A stretch of DNA of 44,572 nucleotides, filler included, from Catajapyx aquilonaris (taxonomy: Eukaryota): assembly GCA_000934665.2 (NCBI GenBank). It is 2 parts of 2 records of this genome, joined end to end, with 100 filler letters (N's around TTAATTAATTAA, not from the genome) between each part and the next. Parts side by side here need not be neighbours in the genome. Positions count along the whole stretch, not along the records: positions 22,341 to 44,572 come from KZ539433.1; 1 more part is not named here. One strand, written 5' to 3'. Of this stretch, positions 9,592 through 44,010 are shown in pieces. Under the pieces are notes generated by a model, which saw only the letters and a list, made by a program, of their open reading frames with translations, did no database searches and had not been told where the DNA came from. Both the position numbers and the translations under genes were made by a program. Every line of letters starts with the position of its first letter. Position 1 is the stretch's first letter.

Positions 9592-10684
9592 CTGCAATAA
9601 AATATAACCTTGTAAAATATTCCACAAAAAGATAATCTTAAAAATAAAAGTCACAGCTCGACATCCCCTGATACTTCTAATTATTTTAAGAAAAAACGTC
9701 TAACTCCAAGGTTTAAATGATAACCAAAGAAAGGATTTCTAGATTAGAACACATTGTCAACCATTTGCAAGACTCAAGGTGCTTTGTGACTGGTTGTCAT
9801 TCACAATGTGACCCAGACATTTAAAATGTGCAGGTGATAGCAAAAATCCTGACTTATCACTTTTGTCACTGGATAAGGAAAAGAATGTTACAGGTTCATC
9901 TGTCACAGATAAAATCACCATCCTGACAGTTTCATGCAGACAGATAAAAACATCAACGAGAAAAACTTTCAATAAGACATCATTCTTCCTTGCATATGGG
10001 GTGTATCAGAGTAACGGGTCAAGCGTGCAAGGGGTTGCGTAGAAAAATCGTAGGTGGCGATAACCCTGGTCAGTTTTATAAAACAGTTAGCATTAAGGTA
10101 GTAATCGATTTTTTTCTTCCCCTATGACATCACATCCTTTCTGTTTGAATTGAAAGGCAGGTGCTGCGCGTAGAGAGGCTCTCTAGCCATGCGGGTTGCA
10201 CTGAACAAGGCGCTCTCATGCTATCCCACGCAAAGCATGGGGCCGTGCTTAGGCCTCAGCAACTCCTCTCACAACCTGCCCATGCAGCGGTGCATCGGGA
10301 AAAGGCGGAGGATGTCGAGCACAGGTCTCTAGACAGGCATACTGGATAGTCCTCATCCTCATCGAAAAATCGCGAAAAACGTTTCCTGTGGTGGACAGAC
10401 GGATGCATGAGGCCAGTACATTGCCAGGCAAGTGAGATACAGCAGGTACGTACAGTAGTACAGTGTGTTGTACACCTGTACTGTAACAGTAATGTATCGC
10501 ACATCATGACAGGTGCCCCTCGTACTGCATTTACCATGGCCCTGGAGGAAGACGTTCTGGACATGGTAGCCACAGATCCATAGATCAGCACCCGTGAAGT
10601 TGGTCGTAGAGTGGACAACAGTCATTCCAATGTGTGCAGGATCATCCATGAGAGCATCTGAGCGAATGGGCACCAGTTCCAGCA

Positions 10685-11464
10685 ATATAATATTATTATT
10701 ATAATAACGGATACCCCGTGACAGGCCTTGGGCCTCTCAGGGGATCTTCTTTTCGTGAACTGACTTTAATCATTAGGGTCATTCCTATGTGCCACAGGGA
10801 TCATGAACCTTACCCCCGAAAAACGCGATTGGGGTGTTCCCACATGCCCTTCCTCCACCCGAACGCGTTTACGAAGGTGACTGTGGCAGCCAACTTGCAG
10901 AAGTTGACTGCCAGGTTCCGAGTCATGTTCCTGACGTCACTCCCCCCTCCGGACCGGCTCTTAGCAGAGCAACATGACGGCTCTCTGCTTGGCCCCGTCT
11001 GCCCCCACACTCTGCAGGCAGCCAGGACCTGTGTAATAGCGTAGATAGCATGCCTCCATGCTATTACAGCCAGACCTATCGTAGAGTCACCTGTGCCTTT
11101 GTCCGGGAGCCGAAGCGAGAGTCATTTTTTCGCCAGGTAGGTGGGCGTGGTTCCAGACGACTCCACCAAAGATCACGAAAAGTACGTGGCCCGTGGAAAC
11201 AGTCACCAAACGATCCTGATTGTGCACCTCAGAAACGTGGTTCAAGATCGAGATTTTGTGGCACGTGGGAATGACCCTATTGCCTTCGTGTGATGGATTT
11301 TGATTGCGGGAAATGGGAGAACCCCGAGAAAACCCACGCGAACACGGAGAGAACCCATCGAAACTCTATCCACATAAGTATCCTCTGCGTGACCCGGGGA
11401 TCGAACTCGGGACCTTAGAGGTGGAAGGCTGTGGCACTAACCACTCCGCCACCGTGTCACCCGT
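10685..11464 (-). mobile_element. tRNA-derived SINE with a V-domain-like core
   Basis: A box TGGCGGAGTGG, B box GTTCGATCC; (TAA)n tail; 14-bp TSD CAC(C/T)AGTTCCAGCA; the empty site is present in copy B. Confidence 0.85.
10775..11278. mobile_element. MITE nested in the SINE
   Basis: TIR AGGGTCATTCCTATGTGCCAC / GTGGCACGTGGGAATGACCCT; TSD is ATT or TA (ambiguous). Confidence 0.75.
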
Positions 11465-12403
11465 CACTAGTTCCAGCATTTTCTGGAGTCACGGTATGCG
11501 TACAGTACGTATACCGACTTCACGGGCGCTGATCGATGGATCCATGGCTACCATGACCAGAACGTCGTCCTCCATTGCCATGGTACGTGTGGTACGAGGG
11601 GCACCTGTCATGATGTGCGATACAGTACTGTTACAGTACCATACACTACTGTACACAGGCATTATCCAGCCAGTGTGTAGTGCTGTACTACAGTACATGT
11701 GTACAACACACTTACGTACCTGCCGTATGTCGCCTGCTTCGCAATGTACTGGCCTCACGCAGCTGTCTGTCCACCGCAAGAAACATTTTTCGCGATTTTT
11801 CGACGAGGATGACATCTACCCGGTATGCATGCGGTCATGCCTCCCTGTCCAGAGACCTGTGCTTGACATCCTCCGCCATTTCCCGGTGCACCGCTGGGCA
11901 GGTCACGACGAGGAGTTGGCGAGACCCAAGGACGGCCCCATGCTTTGTGCGGGATAGCATGAGAGCGCCTTGTTCAATGCAACCTGCAAGGCTCAAGAGC
12001 CGCTCTACGCATGGCATCCGCCTTTCAATTCAAAGAGAAAGGATGTGACGTCATGGCGAAATAAAAAATCGATTACTACCTTAATGCTAACTGTTTTATA
12101 AAACCGACAGGGGTTATGGTCACCTACGATTTTTCCACACCCCCTCTTGACCCATTACTCTGATACACCTGTATATGAGATCCCTTTAGGGCCACTTGCA
12201 TGTTCAATGGTAAATCTATAACTAATGGTTGATCCATGTTAGTCACACAAGTTTAATAACTTGTCCTGGATTTACTATGGATCATGCAACCAACCCTCAG
12301 ACACTGACAAAAAAATCATACCATTGCATTGCATTGATTGTCTATTATCTTGGGGTGAATTTTCCACCCAAAATATTAATCAGAAACGAAATCTCTGACC
12401 AAC

Positions 12404-22340: not shown

Positions 22341-22436
22341 AACAGACTTCACTTTTCGCATCAACCATGTGGTTTCTTGCCCTATGCCAAGTGTCATAGG
22401 GCAACTCAACTTACAGCAAGTACCGTTCCCTTGTGA

Positions 22437-22819
22437 GTGGCGCGGAGTGGCAAATGCAAGGCAAGAGTGCAGTGGTTTGAACCTGGTTGACGGGTTTTTA
22501 TCCTTGCGGGTTGCACTGAAAAAGGAGCTCTCATACTACACCAGTAGGGTACTGAACGTACAGTACCCTACCTGCATAGCATGAGAGCGCCTTTTTCAGT
22601 ACAACCTGCAAGGCTAAAAACCCGTCAACCAGGTTCAACCCAATGCATTTGCCTTGCATTTGCCACTCCACGCCACACAGTTCGAACAGAAAGTAGGATA
22701 AATAAATTGATTACTGCCGTATTTCTCATTGTTTTATAAAAACCGACCCGGGTAGTCACCACCTACGATTTTTCCCCACCCCCTTGCGGGCACTTGACCC
22801 GTGACTCTGAAACACCCTG
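22437..22819. mobile_element. Truncated short relative of the foldback family
   Basis: Palindrome 22437-22675 plus right TIR CTTGACCCGTGACTCTGAAACACCCTG. Confidence 0.75.
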
Positions 22820-23310
22820 CATATGTGTCAGGCACAGTTTTTGAGATGTATTGGATTTACTGCATTTACTAACATACAGTACTATATATTAGTAAATCCA
22901 GTATATCTCAAAAACTGTGCCTAACAGCACAATTCTAAGTGCAGATTTGGAATCAGGGCGAAAGGTATTATAGGAATCACTATTCACATCTTCAGAAAGA
23001 GCAAACAGGTTTTTTGGAGAATAGTGAATTTAACGATATATCTGCAAAACATATGTATTATTTTCTCGCAAACCATGCATAACCCAGGCCTCGAACTTGA
23101 CATACTGAACCTTATGTCAGTCACAACTAGTGCTACCAAATATTACTGATGTAACGCAAATTCATTACTAATTGTTGAGGTCACAATTCTTGGGCATGTG
23201 ACTGAGCAAGTGACCAATGAAATGCTATAAAAATTTATTTTTACATTAGAGGAAAACCAATTCCACAGGCGAATTTTCCTGTTGTTTCTCTTTCTTTTGA
23301 TATATATGTT

Positions 23311-23654
23311 TTTGGTGACCCTTTACGAATGCTCGTGTTGGCCCTGAAAAGGGGCGTTGGTAACGTTGGTCCTGAAAAGGACCGGTTGTCTGATGTGCTG
23401 CGGAGCTCGGAGGTCTGTACTGATGTTCCTCGATGAAGGCTGCAGACGAAGTGGGTTGCCGGCACTTTGGGTGCCGCTTTTATGGGAAAGGCGCGGACCT
23501 TGTGGAGGTCAAGCCAGAATGGCTCGATTCTGGCCTTGAAGGCTTTTGGCAGGAAATGAGCCAGGGAAAGGAATGGTTAGGAGGCCAATGAGAGTCAGGG
23601 GAAGTTTGTCGGTGAGATGAAGCCGGCAGGGCAGGGCTTGCCTGCCGGCTCACC
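23311..23654 (-). mobile_element. 344-bp insertion with two histone 3' stem-loops (solo-LTR-like or SINE-like)
   Basis: ATATGTT duplicated at 23304-23310 and 23655-23661; absent from the paralogous host copy near 43560; GGTGAGCC...GGGTCACC termini. Confidence 0.8.
23340..23383 (-). promoter_or_regulatory. Tandem histone mRNA 3' stem-loop motifs
   Basis: GGTCCTTTTCAGGACC (23383-23368, perfect 6-bp stem and TTTC loop) and GCCCCTTTTCAGGGCC (23355-23340, one mismatch), 28-nt period, A/C-rich flanks. Confidence 0.85.
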
Positions 23655-24508
23655 ATATGTTCCTTGGGGTTTGACCACTTCCACTAACCGAAAAAAATTT
23701 CTCTAAAAAGGCCTCATTTTCAGCCATTTCCAGATTTTTGAGATTTTTTTCCTCGTCATGGTATTTCACAATATGGCTGAAACTCCATAAGCAGCATTAA
23801 GGAATAGGTGAGTACATCTCTCATTATTTTCACCAAGATCCGAGACGGTCTAGCAACATTTAGGGCCACTTGATTCGGAAAGTCTCTTAGTAAACCCTTC
23901 CAAACTTTAAACCGATATATCTCAAATGCTGTGCCTGAGAGCACAATTCTAATTACAGATTTGAAATCAGCGGTAAAAATATGTATTGAAAAACATATCA
24001 TAACCTGGGAAAAATCTTTCCTTGTCAAACAGTGTCATCTACCATCGTCAGAAAAATTCAATTGAAATTCTGGATGATTCCTAATGCTTGTCATTTCAAA
24101 TTTCCTGTCCATGTTTTCAATCCTCAGAGCAGACATTTAAAAACTGAGATTTATACTTTTTCATCTAATTATATTAGGAACAACTGCCAATAAAAATTAT
24201 TATGGGCAACAGCAAAATGAATCCTGGAAAGGGACCTTTTCTGCTATCGAAATGTTAAAAGTCTGCATCTGGATATGGAAGGTGATGCCAGTTTTGGTAG
24301 CAGGAGAAAGCTGGTGTACTGACAGCACAATTGGTTTAAATATGTTTAAACCATGTGAAAAATCTTTGCATCCTACACAACAACTGTGTCTGATGGTGCC
24401 CTTGATAAGTGTAATTTGCCTGGGAAGACTTGAGGGGCACCACCAAAAGCCAAGAAACAAAACCCCATCCACGATCAATTTTTCTGGCCACTTTATCTCC
24501 TGTGTGTA

Positions 24509-26043: not shown

Positions 26044-26363
26044 GTCCCTACTATGTCTTTATATTTAATTAAATTATATTTCAAATTAAAACAAACACAT
26101 TTTGCTATCTTTTGGGTAGTAACAGTTTATGAGGTCTGGAGGAAGCCCTCCATGCTCAAAGCAAGAGGTCGAATTCTTTTCACTGCAAGAGGAAAAGAAA
26201 CCAGAGATCAGCAATATTTGTACAGGCAGAATTTTAACTTTTTTTTTGTTAGCAGTTTGTGTTGTTTTATTCTGATGATAAGATGAAAAATTCCCATAGA
26301 ATTCACCCACTTTTTAAAGGAGTAAACTCTAAAAGCTGTTGCAAAGGCTACCAATTAGATATA

Positions 26364-27879
26364 CAGGGTGTATCAGAGTCACGGGTCAAGCACGAGTGAG
26401 GGGGTGAGGAAAAATCGTAGTTGGCGATAACCCCGGTCGGTTTTATAAATCAATTAGAAATAAGGGAGTAATCGATTTTGATTATGGCGTGACGTCATGT
26501 CCTTTCCGTTCAAATTGAGAGGCGCGAAAAAGCGAGTACAGTGCGCCCAGCGGCTCTCTACCCGTGCTGGATCACTGAACAAGGCGCTCTCATGCTCTCC
26601 CGCCTTCCCACGCAAAGCATGGGGCTGGGTTTGGACCTCGGAAACCCCTCTTCACGACCTGCCCATGCAACGGTGCACCAGGAAATTGCGGGGGATGTCG
26701 AGCACCGCGATGTCTCTGTACAAGTGTACAGGCAGGAATGACAGTAAGCATACTGTGTAGACGGCATCCTCATCGAAAAATCGCGAATAATGTTTCTCGC
26801 AGTGGTCAGACGGCTGCATGAGGCCGGTACATTGCGAGGCAGGCGAGATACGTCAGGTACGTGCAGTTAGTACAGTGTGTCGTACACCTGTACTGTAGTA
26901 CAGCACTGCACTGGCTGGATAATGCCTGTGTAAAGTAGTGTAGGTACTGTAACAGTACTGTATCGCACAATGCACCTCGTACCGCATGTACCATGGCAAT
27001 GAAGGAAGACGTTCTGGACATGGTACCCATGGACCCATTGATCAGCACCCGTGAAGTCGGTTGTAGAGTGCACAGCATTCATTCCAATGTGTGAAGGAGC
27101 ATCCATGACAGCATCCAAGCGAATGGCTGCCAGTTCCAGCATTTTCTGTAGTCACGGTATGCGTACTGACAGTACACATACCGACTTCACGGGTGCTGAT
27201 CGATGGGTCCATGGCTACCATGTCCAGAATGTCCTCCTCCATTGCCATGGTACGTGTGGTCCGAGGTGCATTGTGCGATACAGTATACTGTTACAGTACG
27301 GTACACTACTGTACACAGGCATTATCCAGCCAGTGCAGTGCTGTACTACAGTACAAATGTACAACACCTTGTACTAACTGTACGTACCTGACGTACCTTG
27401 CCTGGCTCGCAATGTACCAGCCTCACGCAGCCGTCTGTCCACTGCAAGAAACATTATTCGCGATTTTCCGATGAGGATGATGTCTACACGGTATGCGTAC
27501 TGTCATTCCTGCCTGTACACTTGTACAGAGACATCGGTGCTCGACATCCTCCGCCATTTCCCGGTGCACCGTTGCATGGGCAGGTCGCGAAGAAGCGTTG
27601 ACGAGGTCCAAACACGGCCCCATGCTTTGCGTGGGAAGGCGGGAGAGCATGACAGCACTTTGTTCAGTACAACCGGCATGGCTAGAGAGCTGCTGGGTGA
27701 ACTGTACTTGTCTTTCCGGGCCTCTCAATTCGAACGGAGAGGATGTGTCGTCCCGCCGTAATCAAAAATCAATTACTCCCTTATTTCTAATTGTTTTATA
27801 AAACCAACCGGGTTATCTACACCTACGATTTTTCCCCACCCCCTCGCGCAAACTTGACCCATGACTCTAATACACCCTG
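26364..27879. mobile_element. Foldback Tc1/IS630-type element (copy B, uninterrupted)
   Basis: TA|CAGGGTGTATCAGAGTCACGGGTCAAG...TACACCCTG; ~700-bp arms each carrying an MEEDILDMVAMDPSISTREVG-like HTH relic. Confidence 0.9.
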
Positions 27880-27935
27880 CACCTACCACCCATCAAACAA
27901 CCATTTAACCCTTCAAATGTTTCAGCCACACTCAC

Positions 27936-31577: not shown

Positions 31578-32835
31578 CGAGGTAGGCGCCAAAAGTTTCC
31601 GTCCTGGCTATGTTCCAGGGGTGATAGAAATAAAACAACTATAGTGTCAGGTAGTCCCAACCATGAGTTGAGGAATGTACAAGTTTCACCCGGCAACGTC
31701 AGTCAGTCTCTCAGAAAAGTCAACTTTAGTCAGACGAGTTGCAACATGGTGAAAATCGAGTATCAAGAGTGATCAAGTTTCTCACCATGGAAGGCCTTAC
31801 TACCATGTCTATTAAACAGGCCTTGGATGGTGTGTATGGTGAAGCTTCCTCTTCATATTCCACCATAAAGGAATGGGCTAAGCAGTTTCGTTTGGGTTGA
31901 GAGAACATCGAAGGCGAGCTATGCGACTTTCGGCCCGTGGAGGTGCTGACTGCAGAGACCATCTCTCTTGTGGAGGAGTAGGTGCTGCAAGCAGGCCCTT
32001 GGAGGTGGAGGAACTCTTGGGAAGGTTGTGTCTTTCAGACACCACCATTCCTCTCATTATTCATGAACACCTTCACCTGAAAAAGGTCAGCACAAGATGG
32101 GTGCCCCGACTTCTGTCCGCAATTAAAAAGCAAAAATGCATAACATGTTGCGAAACCTTTTCGGACCTTCGCCATGGCAAACAGAAAGAAGTACTGGAGT
32201 TCATCGTCACAGGAGATGAAACTATGGTCCTGTGCTATGATCCTCTATCAAAATGAGAATTAATGGAATAGCTTAGGGCAGGCGGAAAGCGGCCGAGTGA
32301 CCCGGTCAACCAAGAAGACCATGGTGACGGTTCTTTAGAATTCCAAAGGAATCTTACTAATAGACTTCAAGGATTAAACCTCGATTGTCTAAGGGGAGTC
32401 TTACTCTGGCCTGCTGCACAGGTTTCGTGATGCCATGAAGAAGAAGAGATGCGGGAAGTTGAGTTGGGGTGTTCTCCAACTTCTGGATAATGAACCAGGT
32501 TACAGGACAATGTTTCCAAGGCTGCTGTGAGGAACTGTGGCTTCGAGGAGCTTGATCACCCACCCTACTGGCCCCTAGTGACTATTACCTGTTATCCAAA
32601 CTCAAAAAAGAACTTCAAGGTACGGTTAAAAAGTGATGAAGAGGTGTAAGAGGCAGTATACGAGCATTTTGTCGAGAAAACTTTGGACTATTTTTCCAGA
32701 GGTATTGAAATGATAATTATGAGATATGAGACATGCATTGATGTAGAAGGAGACTATATTGAAAAATGACACTGTAGTTTTATTTCCATCACCCCTGGAA
32801 CATAGCCAGGACAGAAACTTTTGGCGCCTACCTCG
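31578..32835 (+). mobile_element. Full-length decayed mariner transposon
   Basis: TA flanks; TIR CGAGGTAGGCGCCAAAAGTTTC; 1258 bp. Confidence 0.95.
31746..32769 (+). pseudogene. mariner transposase pseudogene
   Basis: VIKFL...EWAKQF, RWVPRLL, IVTGDETMV, HPPY..PSDYYL; multiple stops and frameshifts. Confidence 0.93.
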
Positions 32836-35782: not shown

Positions 35783-36033
35783 CTTTAACTATAGGAACTG
35801 GAATGGAATGGAACCAACAATGGAACATAGAATGGAACGTTGGAATCGTTGCTGTTTTAACCAAAGGAACGGACTGCCGAAATAATATTCATTTTATAGT
35901 CAAAACTGACTTTTAAAATAATTAAAATAGTATATAAGTACTGAAGCTTTTAAATTGCTGAGTTTTTAAATGCAAATACAGGTGAAGACCAGTGTAGACA
36001 TCTGGCGGTTCTCTCTTTAATAAAAGCGGCACT

Positions 36034-36265
36034 TTAATTGATATTTATTTAAGGAGGTTGGCCCAGCATTTGCCATTCAACCTCCAAGGATAGGGAAGGA
36101 AGGAAGCGGCTGTGGCCTATTATACGGAAGCGACCCCGGAATTATCCTAGAAAGACCGTGGAAAACCACAGAAAACCACGGTCAAGGTTGCCGGCCCCGG
36201 GATTCGAACCCAGGACCTCCCGATTAGCAGTCGGACGCCTTATCCACTATGCCAACCTGCTTCGG
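36034..36265 (-). mobile_element. tRNA-derived SINE (Inv-domain-like)
   Basis: Perfect 16-bp TSD TAATAAAAGCGGCACT; B box GTTCGAATCC. Confidence 0.88.
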
Positions 36266-36413
36266 TAATAAAAGCGGCACTATAAAATACGCCGATATAG
36301 GATAGGCATATAGAGGCATACAGACATAGACTACAGTATTATACCTTCGACCATGATACTACATGTAGAAATGGTCGAAGGTATAATACAACTCGTCGAA
36401 CTCGATACAACTA

Positions 36414-40320: not shown

Positions 40321-40708
40321 CTCATGGCGCTCTCAAGTGAGTGCCTCATGCAAAACGCCCCGGCAGGCAATAAGATAAGACTATAGGGGTAATGACTGGG
40401 GGTTGCCCCAACTGAACTTTAGTGTAAGAGTGACACACACCCAGACTGCATCTTCCCTCCAAAAGATTTAGACGAGCCTCTTCCATCAATGGAGTTTCCG
40501 CAGCCTCTGCAGCTCTTGCCATGACGCTGTCCATAACATCATAAACAATGCTTCTGGCCTCACCTTCACATTCCACTTCCAAATAAATCTTCAACAGTGA
40601 GCAGTGTCAATGTCAGCAACAACTCTCATGATCTCCTGTGCACTGTCTGATGAATTGTGGGCAGGTGGTGCAAGAGTTGGCAGGTGGTATACTGGTATAT
40701 GTCTGTCA

Positions 40709-40803
40709 CGGCCATAAAAATTAACGCAAATCCCCCACTTCCATACTCAATATTAAATCCTGATACTAATTCAGACTCCCCCTCAGCAAAATCAAATGGA
40801 GTT
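40709..40803 (-). pseudogene. ND1: NUMT: mitochondrial ND1 fragment
   Basis: [31 protein letters not shown] is the conserved ND1 loop, with AT-rich codons. Confidence 0.93.
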
Positions 40804-41759
40804 GCCCCCTTCCTGTAGCCTACTGCCTCAGCTGTGTTGCACTTAGCTTCCCCCACTGCCTTGCTTGTGGCCAGCATTGTCAGTTTGTCACGTTCCAAGT
40901 TCATGGCATTGACACCTGCTGCCACATGCTCCACCCTTACATGGGCAGTGTTCACTGCCAATGCTCCTCTGGCAGTTATGCTAGAATTTGATAATATTAA
41001 TTAGTTGTCTTGTGCACAAAGGTCTGTATGGTATTAACCTAGAAATGGCCAGCACCTACTTTTCATTACAATATCATAGCCTACACCAGCTGTGAAGTGA
41101 CAACAGTGTGGTCTGCTTACATCCCATTGTATCAACAATGGGATGTAAGCAAACCACACCGTTGTCACTTCACAGCTAATTGCACTACTTGTTTGAAGAC
41201 ATAATAAATTATGCAATATTGCTTTATTTTTTTGCATGTTCACTGGACTTATACCAGTGCTCAAACTGTGGCCACAAGTGGCACTTATTATTACCGGTAT
41301 TTTTTTAAATTTTTTAATTTAATTTTCATTTTTTTATTGGGNNNNNNNNNNNNNNGACTACTTATTATTATAATTATACGGTACCTTACTAGATCTCTTG
41401 CCATTGCCAGATCATTGGCCTGTACCGAGCCTGTACTTACAATAATGCGGCCATGCTTCAACACTGCAGGACGCGGAAGATACTCCCCCATCCAAACGGG
41501 ACGAAAGCCGACCATATAGGAACTACGGGGGTCGCCCCCATACTCGCCTCTGCGGCGGTTGTGGAGTCTCCCATCTCCCCCAAAAAATGTCGCACGAGCA
41601 CAGCAGCACACTCAAAGTCTCAAACCCTTGTACGACTACGAACCAAAGCTCCCACTCCGCCCAACTCTCTTTGATTTACACCCACGCCGCAGTTACTATA
41701 AAAAGAAAAGAAAGAAGAAAAAAAAAAGTAGCCAGGGTAGTAGCCACGAGAGGCGCTGC

Positions 41760-43170: not shown

Positions 43171-44010
43171 CACTGTTCTACAAAATAACACTTTTTTCTA
43201 TTTTCGGAACATTTGAATAGTGATTCCTATTGTACTTTCTGCGCTGAATCCGAATATCTGCTCATAAGGTTTCTGTCAGGCAGCTAGTTTTTGGGATATA
43301 GCGTTTTAAGGTTTGGAACAGTTTAGTGAGTTATTACAAGGACTCATTCCGAATCAAGTGGGCCTCAATGTTGCTAGACCGTCTCGGATCTTGGTGAAAA
43401 TAGTCACAGAAGTACTCACCTAATGCTGCCTATAAAGTTTCAGCCATATTGCGAAATACCATGACGAGGAAATAAATCGCACAAATCTGGAAATGGCTGA
43501 AAATGAGGCCTTTTTTGGAGATTTTTTCCGGTTAGTGGAAGTGGTCAAAAGCCAATGAACATACATATCAAAAGAAAGAGAAACACCAGTAAAATGCGCC
43601 TATAGAATTGGTTTACCTCTAAAGCGTAAAAATAAATTTTTATAGCATTTCATTGGTCACTTTCTCAGTCACATGCCCAAAAATATATCGTGACCTCAAC
43701 AATTGGTGATGTGTTTACATTACATCAGTCATATTTGGTGACACTATAGTTGTGACTGACATAAGGTTCAGTATAATTATCAAGTTTGAGGCCTTGGTCA
43801 TGCATGGTTCGCGAGAAAATAATAGATATGTTTTGCACATATACAAGTACCGTTAATTTCACCCTTCTACAAAATTAAACCCTGTTTGCTCTTTCTGAAG
43901 ATGTGAATAGTGATTCTTATAGTACTTTTCGCCCTGATTCCAAATCTGCACTGAGAATTGTACTATCAGGCACAGCTATTGAGATACACTGCATTTACTA
44001 ATATATAGTA
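43171..44010 (+). mobile_element. Chapaev3/CMC-like repeat (copy without the insert)
   Basis: TTA|CACTGTTCTACAAAAT terminus; homologous to 22875-24034. Confidence 0.7.

What the first reader, a model, noticed from the sequence alone, without database searches (positions are those of the whole stretch)
23311..23654. Non-coding mobile insertion carrying two tandem histone-mRNA 3' stem-loops
Seen: the paralogous host repeat near 43560 lacks this 344-bp segment, and ATATGTT is duplicated at both junctions, so it is a discrete insertion. On the minus strand its 3' part reads ACAACC-GGTCCTTTTCAGGACC-AACGTT-ACCAAC-GCCCCTTTTCAGGGCC-AAC. That is one perfect and one single-mismatch histone stem-loop with a 28-nt period. 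There is no histone coding sequence and no AATAAA. Known: this 16-nt hairpin binds SLBP and defines the non-polyadenylated, S-phase-regulated 3' end of replication-dependent histone mRNAs. Inference: a mobile element that co-opts SLBP-type 3'-end formation or stability, which could tie its RNA to S phase or oocytes. Caveats: there is no clear purine-rich downstream element (HDE) for U7, only one copy is in the window, and I cannot verify novelty.
Basis: partly seen in the sequence, partly recalled or inferred. Interest (0 to 1): 0.82.

Follow-up and report, generated by a model that had tools for sequence, protein, structure and literature searches.

The report
Gene-less mobile element with histone hairpins
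A 344-base jumping-gene copy in an animal (probably arthropod) genome carries a promoter-like stretch and two copies of the RNA hairpin that normally ends histone messages but no gene, and transposase genes elsewhere end in the same double hairpin, so mobile DNA seems to borrow the histone message-ending pathway.

Summary
Window 23311-23654 is a discrete insertion into an older repeat: the paralogue at 43273-44010 lacks it and ATATGTT flanks both junctions. The minus strand carries two histone-type stem-loops 28 nt apart.

New here:
- The element is multi-copy in DNA runs of the same organism, and five other contigs end at the same terminus with unlike flanks.
- The one stem mismatch in stem-loop 2 is private to this copy. 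All 13 other contigs in run X1 restore the pair.
- Stem-loop 1 is letter-identical to the Drosophila H3 pre-mRNA hairpin.
- The termini form an 8-of-9 inverted repeat, TG...CA.
- A scan of public metagenome contigs for tandem histone hairpins gave 120 loci. In 74 the pair lies on the strand of a DDE_3 (Tc1/mariner-type) transposase match, usually just after it, and no histone gene lies upstream. Nine of 15 tested reach Rfam's Histone3 threshold.

Both hairpins here score below that threshold. No RNA evidence exists. The mode of mobility is unresolved.

The scan noted a similar gene-less cassette before on other DNA of this genome (e1-7499508). I found no paper describing this.

The parts
23311..23655 (-). 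The inserted element. On the minus strand it starts TGGTGAGCC at 23655 and ends GGGTCACCAAA at 23311. GC is 0.56 against 0.39 in the flanks.
   Evidence: Other copies stop being alike at 23655-23658 (table 8).
23304..23310 (.). Left copy of the target-site duplication, ATATGTT. It is 6 bp (TATGTT) if base 23655 belongs to the element.
   Evidence: Empty-site joints with 7 shared letters (table 5).
23655..23661 (.). Right copy of the target-site duplication, ATATGTT.
23611..23654 (-). 5'-terminal GC-rich hairpin: GGTGAG/CTCACC around GCCGGCAGG/CCTGCCGGC.
   Evidence: -26.7 kcal/mol, z -4.5, 0 of 200 shuffles fold as well.
23585..23590 (+). CCAAT box in inverted orientation, about 105 nt upstream of the TATA-like box.
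   Evidence: Read. Motif only, not tested.
23514..23533 (-). Internal hairpin CCAGAAT...ATTCTGG.
   Evidence: Self-hit; z -2.8.
23477..23484 (-). TATA-like box CATAAAAG.
   Evidence: Read. Motif only.
23448..23454 (-). Initiator-like CCACTTC. Its A (23452) lies 30 nt after the T of the TATA-like box and is the predicted start of a leader without ATG.
   Evidence: Read. No ATG on the minus strand. Inference.
23368..23383 (-). Stem-loop 1, GGTCCTTTTCAGGACC: perfect 6-bp stem with a UUUC loop.
   Evidence: Identical to the hairpin of the Drosophila dH3 pre-mRNA substrates.
23340..23355 (-). Stem-loop 2, GCCCCTTTTCAGGGCC. One mismatch is private to this copy. All other contigs read the base that restores the pair.
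   Evidence: table 3, place 23354: 13 of 13 (X1), 12 of 12 (X2), 12 of 12 (X4) and 2 of 2 (X5) contigs.
23319..23326 (-). Purine-rich box GTAAAGGG, 15 nt after SL2: a candidate histone downstream element.
   Evidence: Read. L071 has CGAAGGGTG 10 nt after its SL2. Untested.
22880..23941 (.). Host repeat copy that received the insertion. Its paralogue at 43273-44010 is inverted and empty.
   Evidence: Very many contigs of this repeat.

Best explanation
The segment is one ageing copy of a dispersed, multi-copy, non-autonomous mobile element. It is most likely an internally deleted derivative of a cut-and-paste (terminal-inverted-repeat) DNA element.

Its minus strand has the layout of a replication-dependent histone gene with the coding part missing: an inverted CCAAT, a TATA-like box, an initiator 30 nt later, an ATG-free leader of about 70 nt, two canonical histone-type stem-loops 28 nt apart, and a purine-rich box where a histone downstream element would lie.

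Proposed working, inferred and not shown: RNA polymerase II starts near 23452. SLBP binds the hairpins. U7 snRNP pairs with the downstream box. Cleavage a few bases after a hairpin then gives a short RNA of about 90-120 nt that is capped and not polyadenylated.

In gene-carrying relatives of this design, the same module would place a transposase message, or another cargo message, under the replication-coupled and maternally active control of histone mRNAs. In this ORF-less copy the module is probably an inherited remnant. It might still bind SLBP.
For: Shown:
- An empty paralogue and a 6-7 bp target duplication.
- Many other copies. Twelve to 13 distinct contigs per run cover SL2 in X1, X2 and X4. 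Five distinct contigs end their likeness at 23655-23658 and run on for 63-827 unlike bases. Internal-deletion variants skip 140 and 190 bases.
- Termini TGGTGAGCC / TGGTGACCC match at 8 of 9 positions. Only 15 of 20000 shuffles do as well at any of 16 offsets.
- Two hairpins fit GGYYYU-UUUC-ARRRCC, and both are found by Rfam Histone3.
- SL1 is identical to the Drosophila H3 hairpin.
- Every other contig restores SL2's broken pair.
- The minus strand has no ATG and neither strand has a poly(A) signal.

By analogy:
- Of 122 loci carrying tandem histone-type hairpins (120 metagenome, 2 prokaryote-genome), 75 hold a DDE_3 transposase match. In 74 of these it lies on the hairpins' strand, and in 70 it ends from 1 base inside SL1 to 67 nt before it.
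- One further locus has an IS1595-type transposase domain upstream.
- None of the 105 upstream ORF pieces from the 45 loci without a transposase match has a histone domain.
- All 15 loci tested are hit by RF00032, and 9 of 15 reach its gathering score.
- Earlier notes on this genome report a similar gene-less cassette and a RING gene with a histone-type promoter and end (not checked by me).
Against: - Both hairpins score 16-17 bits, half of Rfam's gathering score. Their flanks (CAACC before, AAC after) differ from the model's CCAAA and ACC.
- No RNA run was available, so transcription, cleavage and SLBP binding are unseen.
- The species' own histone genes and U7 snRNA could not be examined because no genome is held. 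The downstream box is therefore only positional.
- The 3' terminus at 23311 was not seen in other copies among the rows shown.
- A high-depth contig (X2, record 10, depth 422) stops matching inside SL1 and runs on for 161 unlike bases, so the commonest relative may be built differently.
- The TG...CA termini and the order promoter, then RNA-end signal, also fit a solo LTR.
- Only the hairpin region aligns to the transposase-linked loci, so they are analogues and not relatives.
Confidence: 0.55

Rival explanations
1. It is a solo LTR of an LTR retrotransposon. U3 would hold the CCAAT and TATA boxes, R would start near 23452, and the RNA 3' end would be made by histone-type hairpins in place of a poly(A) signal, with the downstream box in U5.
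For: The termini read TG...CA with an 8-of-9 inverted repeat. The size of 343-345 bp, and the promoter-like and RNA-end motifs in one direction, fit U3-R-U5. There is no poly(A) signal. The family is multi-copy.
Against: With strict TG...CA ends, two extra A bases lie between the element and the 6-bp duplication, or the duplication would be 8 bp with two mismatches. LTR insertions normally make 4-6 bp duplications (recalled). No consistent internal sequence appeared next to either end among the loose ends shown, though 585 rows were not shown. Hairpins plus a downstream box would also lie about 70-120 nt from the start of every transcript and would risk premature cleavage.
Confidence: 0.2
2. 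It is a SINE-like retroposed RNA copied by a LINE enzyme. The A run at the 3' end would be a short tail and the 5-7 bp duplication would come from target-primed reverse transcription.
For: The element ends in a run of 3-5 A's, depending on where the duplication is placed, directly before the duplication, and that placement is ambiguous by 2 bases as with tailed retroposons. Contig cover is highest over the 3' 80 bases in three runs (table 2).
Against: The inverted-repeat termini are unlikely by chance (15 of 20000 shuffles). The cover profile is not a simple 5'-truncation gradient, since the 5' end is well covered and the middle is lowest. Rfam found no tRNA, 5S or 7SL-like head. A transcript from the internal TATA box would not carry the upstream 200 bases.
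Confidence: 0.1
3. The palindromes act as DNA, for example as subterminal binding sites or hairpins for a transposase. On this view their likeness to histone mRNA hairpins has no RNA meaning.
For: They lie within 75 bases of one terminus, and the element has other strong hairpins. GC-rich hairpins with the same 16 letters occur as a tandem repeat in a bacterial genome (L122).
Against: Both hairpins fit the strand-specific histone consensus, including the asymmetric UUUC loop and A/C-rich flanks. One equals the Drosophila H3 hairpin. In the analogous transposase loci the hairpins lie on the coding strand in 74 of 75 cases, directly after the stop, and 9 of 15 pass Rfam's threshold, which includes downstream sequence.
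Confidence: 0.1
4. It is a stray, CDS-less fragment of the host's own histone gene array, copied once or a few times by DNA-level duplication. It would not be a mobile family.
For: The promoter motifs and hairpins are histone-gene-like. Cover over the hairpin region is higher than over the middle, and true histone genes could add to it.
Against: There is a precise target duplication at an otherwise intact site. Several contigs share the same 5' terminus with different flanks, and there are deletion variants. No known histone array holds a promoter joined to hairpins without a gene (recalled).
Confidence: 0.05

Closest known systems
3' end of animal replication-dependent histone genes (Rfam RF00032 Histone3 plus the histone downstream element; SLBP, U7 snRNP, CPSF73)
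   Same: A 6-bp stem GGYYYU/ARRRCC, a UUUC loop, A/C-rich flanks and a purine-rich box downstream. There is no poly(A) signal. CCAAT and TATA motifs lie upstream.
   Different: There is no histone or any other reading frame. Two hairpins stand in tandem. The whole lies inside a mobile insertion. Rfam scores are 16-17 bits against a threshold of 34.
Drosophila histone H3 pre-mRNA processing substrate (dH3; RNA lists in the methods of PMC3884669 and PMC5961079; only the passages with the RNA lists were seen)
   Same: The 16-letter hairpin is identical to SL1. An A-rich ACAA-type 3' flank is followed by a downstream element about 9-15 nt on.
   Different: The Drosophila downstream element (CAAUGAGAUAAAAUUUUC) is unlike GTAAAGGG. 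dH3 has a single hairpin behind a histone gene.
Tc1/mariner-type (Pfam DDE_3) transposase genes followed by tandem histone-type hairpins, seen here in public metagenome contigs (L001-L120). Six paper searches found no report of this.
   Same: Mobile DNA carries two histone-type hairpins 6-20 nt apart plus a purine-rich box, on the strand of the element's transcript.
   Different: Those elements carry, or once carried, a transposase frame that ends 6-58 nt before SL1, and they extend more than 260 bases past the hairpins. Only the hairpin region aligns to the window's element. Their host organisms are unknown.
MITEs and other internally deleted non-autonomous DNA transposons
   Same: Small size, short terminal inverted repeat, target duplication, many copies, deletion variants and nesting in another repeat.
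   Different: This one carries a complete-looking pol II promoter and a histone-type RNA-end module. No autonomous partner was identified. The superfamily is unknown, and a 6-8 bp duplication does not fit the TA of Tc1/mariner.
Human LTR12/HERV1 elements regulated by U7 snRNA (PMC11417402; only the abstract start in the search listing was seen)
   Same: A link between mobile-element sequences and the histone-processing snRNP.
   Different: There U7 represses LTRs through sequence motifs. No SLBP-type hairpin or 3'-end formation is described in what I saw.

Membership tests
Rfam RF00032 Histone3 (histone 3' UTR stem-loop) | Score at or above the curated gathering score (34 bits) | tested here: not met
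   16.8 bits (23364-23388) and 16.1 bits (23316-23360), both on the minus strand. Neither was listed in the gathering scan.
Rfam RF00032 Histone3 (histone 3' UTR stem-loop) | Core hairpin: 6-bp stem GGYYYU/ARRRCC with a 4-nt U-rich loop | tested here: met
   SL1 is perfect. SL2 has one mismatch, which all other contigs repair.
Replication-dependent histone gene | Encodes a core or linker histone | tested here: not met
   The minus strand has no ATG, and the longest open stretch is 88 codons without a start.
Replication-dependent histone gene | Downstream element complementary to the species' U7 snRNA | not testable with these tools
   No genome is held, so the U7 sequence is unknown. Only a positional candidate, GTAAAGGG, was found.
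Replication-dependent histone gene | Transcript ends 4-5 nt after the hairpin, is not polyadenylated and is bound by SLBP | not testable with these tools
   No RNA run was available to lay.
Non-autonomous TIR DNA transposon (MITE-like) | Target-site duplication at an otherwise intact site | tested here: met
   ATATGTT lies on both sides. The paralogue is empty, and empty-site joints appear in 4 of 4 runs.
Non-autonomous TIR DNA transposon (MITE-like) | Terminal inverted repeats | tested here: met
   8 of 9 positions match. 15 of 20000 shuffles do as well. The repeat is short, and LTRs show the same feature.
Non-autonomous TIR DNA transposon (MITE-like) | Many copies sharing both termini, and an autonomous partner with the same ends | tested here: inconclusive
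   The 5' terminus is shared by five contigs with unlike flanks. The 3' terminus and a partner were not seen, and no genome is held.
LTR retrotransposon (solo LTR) | TG...CA ends directly flanked by a 4-6 bp duplication | tested here: not met
   With TG...CA ends, two extra A bases separate the element from the 6-bp duplication.
LTR retrotransposon (solo LTR) | Paired copies flanking gag-pol, with a primer-binding site and polypurine tract | not testable with these tools
   There is one copy in the window and no genome.
SINE | Head derived from tRNA, 5S, 7SL or snRNA with an internal pol III promoter | tested here: not met
   The Rfam E-value scan of 23250-23720 gave no such match. The other hits are weak (E 0.33-6) and lie far below their thresholds.

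The most novel reading that the evidence does not exclude
Animal mobile elements of several kinds may have captured the complete histone mRNA 3'-end module (tandem SLBP-type hairpins plus a U7-type downstream box). The kinds seen here are Tc1/mariner-type and IS1595-type transposons, small cargo-gene cassettes, and ORF-less derivatives such as this one.

On this reading their messages are made and destroyed with histone messages. Transposase would then appear in S phase and in early embryos, when a cut-and-paste element gains most from sister-chromatid repair. Gene-less copies like this one would produce short hairpin-ended RNAs that compete for SLBP.

That would end the view that this pathway serves histone genes only.
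Probability: 0.35. Interest if true: 0.88.

Novelty: new variant of a known kind. Interest (0 to 1): 0.72.

Why it matters
The SLBP/U7 pathway is taught as reserved for replication-dependent histone genes. Mobile elements that carry its signals would be the first large class of non-histone users. They would give a simple mechanism for timing transposase expression to DNA replication and to the germline or early embryo. They would also supply natural 'minigene' cassettes for testing what is sufficient for histone-type 3'-end formation. For genome annotation, tandem histone hairpins away from histone genes would become a mark of a class of repeats.

Tried and rejected
**Searches that gave nothing**
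- No whole genome is held for the window. Copy census, both termini, an autonomous partner, the host histone genes and U7 could therefore not be examined.
- Earlier-findings look-ups by sequence found nothing, with either the whole insert or its hairpin end. A look-up by place, near, also found nothing.
- Sequencing runs: no RNA holder is listed. All runs laid were DNA contigs, so nothing can be said on expression.
- The family-specific tandem pattern gave 0 hits in prokaryote genome contigs. The general pattern gave 0 in viral contigs and 2 in prokaryote genomes. One of these is a chance match without a first hairpin. The other is a bacterial tandem GC-hairpin repeat.
- Longer flanks of the metagenome loci could not be fetched.

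**Tests that proved weak or circular**
- In a 23-copy transposon family the hairpins differ from consensus at 9 of 736 cells, against 335 of 3393 elsewhere. I reject this as evidence, because the loci were found by an exact pattern that fixes those letters. Only the five free letters of SL1's 5' arm count (4 of 115), which is weak.
- Pfam on the short decayed ORF pieces mostly gave nothing or sub-threshold DDE_3. The identification rests (79 relatives; the full-length ones, about 356 aa, mostly carry PF13358) and on the tblastn.
- Other Rfam hits in the insert (drum, DnaX, mir-1249, mir-611, v-snoRNA-1) are weak and far below threshold, so I treat them as chance.

**Models considered for the ends**
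- A TA duplication (Tc1/mariner) is rejected. Three of six listed other-copy alignments, from five distinct contigs, stop at 23655 and not at 23657, and the termini would then not be inverted repeats.
- Helitron is rejected, because there is a real duplication and no TC...CTRR ends.
- A strict LTR leaves two extra bases.

**Papers**
- Six searches found no paper on mobile elements with histone stem-loops. One search was a title look-up that surfaced one of the two recent papers below.
- Keyword look-ups in two recent papers on histone processing and histone gene organisation turned up no passage on it (passages only).
- Lopez and Samuelsson 2008, the likeliest place for an earlier mention, is not held. 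No supplements were consulted.

Full report
**1. The observation**

The window is animal nuclear DNA. It holds exons of CTP synthase, a histone deacetylase and a proprotein convertase. Earlier notes on the same genome call it arthropod-like. A weak Atlas lead agrees.

A self-comparison shows that the surrounding repeat, 22880-23310 plus 23656-23941, recurs inverted at 44010-43558 and 43563-43273 without the segment. The two paralogue pieces overlap by 6 bases. ATATGTT stands on both sides.

The insert has 56% GC against 39% in its flanks. It has no AATAAA or ATTAAA on either strand and no ATG on the minus strand.

The two hairpins lie at 23383-23368 and 23355-23340 on the minus strand, 28 nt apart. 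The histone-hairpin pattern with up to one mismatch gives 3 window hits against 0.05 expected, and 0 of 100 shuffles reach 3. Rfam's Histone3 model finds both, at 16.8 and 16.1 bits. This is under its gathering score of 34, and the gathering scan listed only a tRNA.

**2. It is one copy of a repeated family**

No genome is held. I therefore laid Logan contigs of four DNA runs on 23100-23900 at 80% likeness. Three runs come from one sample and one from another sample of the same species label.

- Contigs of other host-repeat copies join 23303 to 23655, skipping 351 bases with 7 shared letters, in 4 of 4 runs. These are empty sites, and they confirm the boundaries.
- The insert itself is covered by many distinct contigs. 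At place 23354 there are 13 in X1, 12 in X2, 12 in X4 and 2 in X5.
- Summed word depths are far above those of single contigs. The tool warns that these sums are not copy numbers.
- Five distinct contigs (621, 271/264, 998, 323 and 471 bases) stop resembling the window at 23655-23658 and run on for 63-827 unlike bases. These are other insertions sharing the same terminus.
- Variants skipping 140 and 190 internal bases exist.
- The opposite terminus (23311) was not among the rows shown.

**3. The hairpins in the family**

At 23354 every other contig reads C where this copy has G. That change turns SL2 into the perfect hairpin GGCCC-UUUC-GGGCC, so the single mismatch is a private mutation of an ageing copy.

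Among the 40 best-supported differences shown, 21 fall in the insert. Only this one touches either hairpin, and 131 further differences were not shown. This does not by itself prove selective constraint.

SL1 is letter-for-letter the hairpin of the Drosophila histone H3 pre-mRNA used as a processing substrate. I saw this in the RNA lists in the methods of PMC3884669 and PMC5961079.

**4. Anatomy on the minus strand** (read)

- A strong terminal hairpin, 23654-23611. It folds at -26.7 kcal/mol with z -4.5.
- An inverted CCAAT at 23590-23585.
- A second hairpin at 23533-23514.
- CATAAAAG at 23484-23477.
- CCACTTC, which fits the YYANWYY initiator. Its A lies 30 nt after the TATA T.
- An ATG-free leader of about 70 nt.
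- SL1, a 12-nt spacer, and SL2.
- GTAAAGGG 15 nt after SL2, then the end ...GGGTCACCAAA.

This is the layout of a histone gene with the coding part removed. The promoter motifs and the downstream box are motif-level readings only.

**5. How it moved**

The termini TGGTGAGCC and TGGTGACCC (the reverse complement of the 3' end after two A's) match at 8 of 9 positions. Only 15 of 20000 shuffles do as well at any of 16 offsets. The duplication is 6 bp (7 if base 23655 is target). It would be 8 bp with two mismatches if the element ends at ...CACCA.

I favour a non-autonomous TIR element, an internal-deletion derivative. The reasons are the inverted termini, the duplication, the deletion variants, and the fact that such a derivative naturally keeps the promoter end and the 3'-UTR end of its parent.

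A solo LTR is a serious rival, because it would have TG...CA ends and a U3-R-U5-like order. It needs two unexplained extra bases.

A tailed retroposon fits the A run but not the inverted termini or the cover profile.

A TA duplication is not supported, because three of six listed other-copy alignments, from five distinct contigs, stop at 23655.

**6. Independent support from other DNA**

I scanned public metagenome contigs for two histone-type hairpins 6-20 nt apart. The same pattern gave 0 hits in viral contigs and 2 in 596 billion bases of prokaryote genomes, both explainable.

- Sixty-eight loci hold two complete hairpins, 69 pairs in all.
- The frames just upstream are not histones. One ORF piece has 79 relatives. 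The full-length ones, about 356 aa, mostly carry Pfam DDE_3 (PF13358), a few also PF13551, and some sources name them transposase.
- tblastn with five of these proteins hits 75 of 122 loci, and 74 of the 75 hits lie on the hairpins' strand. In 70 of the 75 the protein match, which mostly runs to the last residues, ends from 1 base inside SL1 to 67 nt before it.
- Of the 45 metagenome loci without such a hit, most carry the same hairpin and spacer families.
- Their 105 upstream ORF pieces gave no histone domain. They gave one IS1595-type transposase domain (L014) and one P2RX7_C domain (L071).
- Rfam Histone3 hits all 15 loci tested. Nine of the 15 reach the gathering score, at 34.4-40.8 bits.
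- In one 23-copy family the element continues more than 260 bases past the hairpins, so the hairpins are internal to the element.
- L071 and L020 are small TATA-led genes ending in GGCCC-type double hairpins like SL2. L071 has CGAAGGGTG 10 nt after its second hairpin, which recalls GTAAAGGG here.

Only the hairpin region aligns between these loci and the window's element. They are analogues, not relatives.

**7. Earlier notes of this scan**

The scan has met this before on other DNA of the same genome. Note e1-7499508 describes a repeated gene-less TATA unit ending in two histone hairpins. Note e1-7506636 describes a RING gene with a histone-type promoter, hairpin and downstream element. I could not see their sequences, and word look-ups with my insert found no near-identical stretch. 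They are leads that agree with my reading, not independent evidence.

**8. Mechanism and what is not shown**

The best reading is that the family descends from a mobile gene cassette whose message is finished by SLBP and U7 snRNP in place of polyadenylation. On this reading, this copy has lost the gene or never had one.

Shown: the insertion, its repetition, canonical hairpins, a consensus-perfect SL2, and transposase genes elsewhere ending in hairpins that pass Rfam.

Inferred: transcription from the TATA box, SLBP binding, U7 pairing, cleavage, and any tie to S phase or embryos.

Against:
- The Rfam scores here are sub-threshold.
- U7 and the host histone genes are unknown.
- There is no RNA evidence.
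- A high-depth contig (X2 record 10, depth 422) departs from this copy inside SL1 and runs on for 161 bases. I cannot explain this.

**9. Novelty**

Six full-text searches found no report of mobile elements with histone stem-loops. One search was a title look-up. Keyword look-ups (passages only) in two 2026 papers on histone 3'-end evolution and histone gene organisation turned up no passage on it.

The nearest printed link I saw is U7 snRNA repressing human LTR12 elements (PMC11417402; abstract start only). The 2008 survey by Lopez and Samuelsson could not be read and might hold an earlier mention.

I rate this a new variant of known kinds: a non-autonomous mobile element combined with the histone 3'-end module. 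Its interest is high because the wider pattern appears real and unreported. I temper that rating because function is untested and the same scan already noted a sister copy.

Noticed in passing
Metagenome loci L001-L120, e.g. L027:499-871, L109, L079, L038: Tc1/mariner-type (DDE_3) transposase frames, mostly decayed, are followed within 6-58 nt by two histone-type hairpins and a purine-rich box. Of 75 loci with a transposase match, 74 have it on the hairpins' strand. Nine of 15 tested pass Rfam Histone3.
   Followed up: yes
L014:913-1167 (-): An ORF piece with an IS1595/ISXO2-type transposase domain (28 bits, cutoff 27) lies about 70 nt upstream of a tandem hairpin pair. A second transposon superfamily may therefore carry the same module.
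   Followed up: partly
L071:115-866 (+) and L020:119-980 (-): These are small intronless genes ending in two GGCCC-type histone hairpins. One has a P2RX7_C domain and is TATA-led; the other is proline-repeat and Cys/His-rich. Both are non-histone cargo with histone-type ends.
   Followed up: partly
L122 (prokaryote genome record), around its match: A bacterial tandem repeat of a GC-rich hairpin whose 16 letters equal the consensus form of SL2. It is a reminder that the bare hairpin can arise outside the histone system.
   Followed up: partly
window 22880-23941 and 43273-44010: The host repeat, about 740 bp without the insert, is present in very many contigs of the DNA runs. It is far more abundant than the insert and has many variant copies and indels. 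Its type was not determined.
   Followed up: partly
window 23372-23543 (X2 record 10): A 331-base contig of depth 422 matches this part at about 87% and then departs inside SL1 for 161 bases. The commonest relative may therefore have a different 3' part. Unexplained.
   Followed up: no
window 40626-41000 (-): An open frame with a NADH dehydrogenase subunit 1 domain (PF00146, E 1.9e-09) lies within nuclear-type DNA. It is probably a mitochondrial insert.
   Followed up: partly
window 36189-36260 (-): A tRNA match of 39.7 bits. A 13-base word of the insert recurs at 36020-36032 and 36268-36280 on either side of it. It may be a tRNA gene or a tRNA-derived repeat.
   Followed up: no
window 10256-12048 and 27109-27761: Related open frames (…IPTSR.LIDGSMATM.R.SSS.AMVRVVRGA…) recur in both orientations, so this is another repeat family. 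BLAST also links 9993-10224, 11954-12177, 26359-26596 and 27646-27881 to 22434-22826.
   Followed up: no
window 31882-32256 (+): By eye (recalled motif) this open frame resembles the N-terminal part of a mariner-type transposase. Pfam gave no hit, and no histone-type hairpin lies near it.
   Followed up: partly
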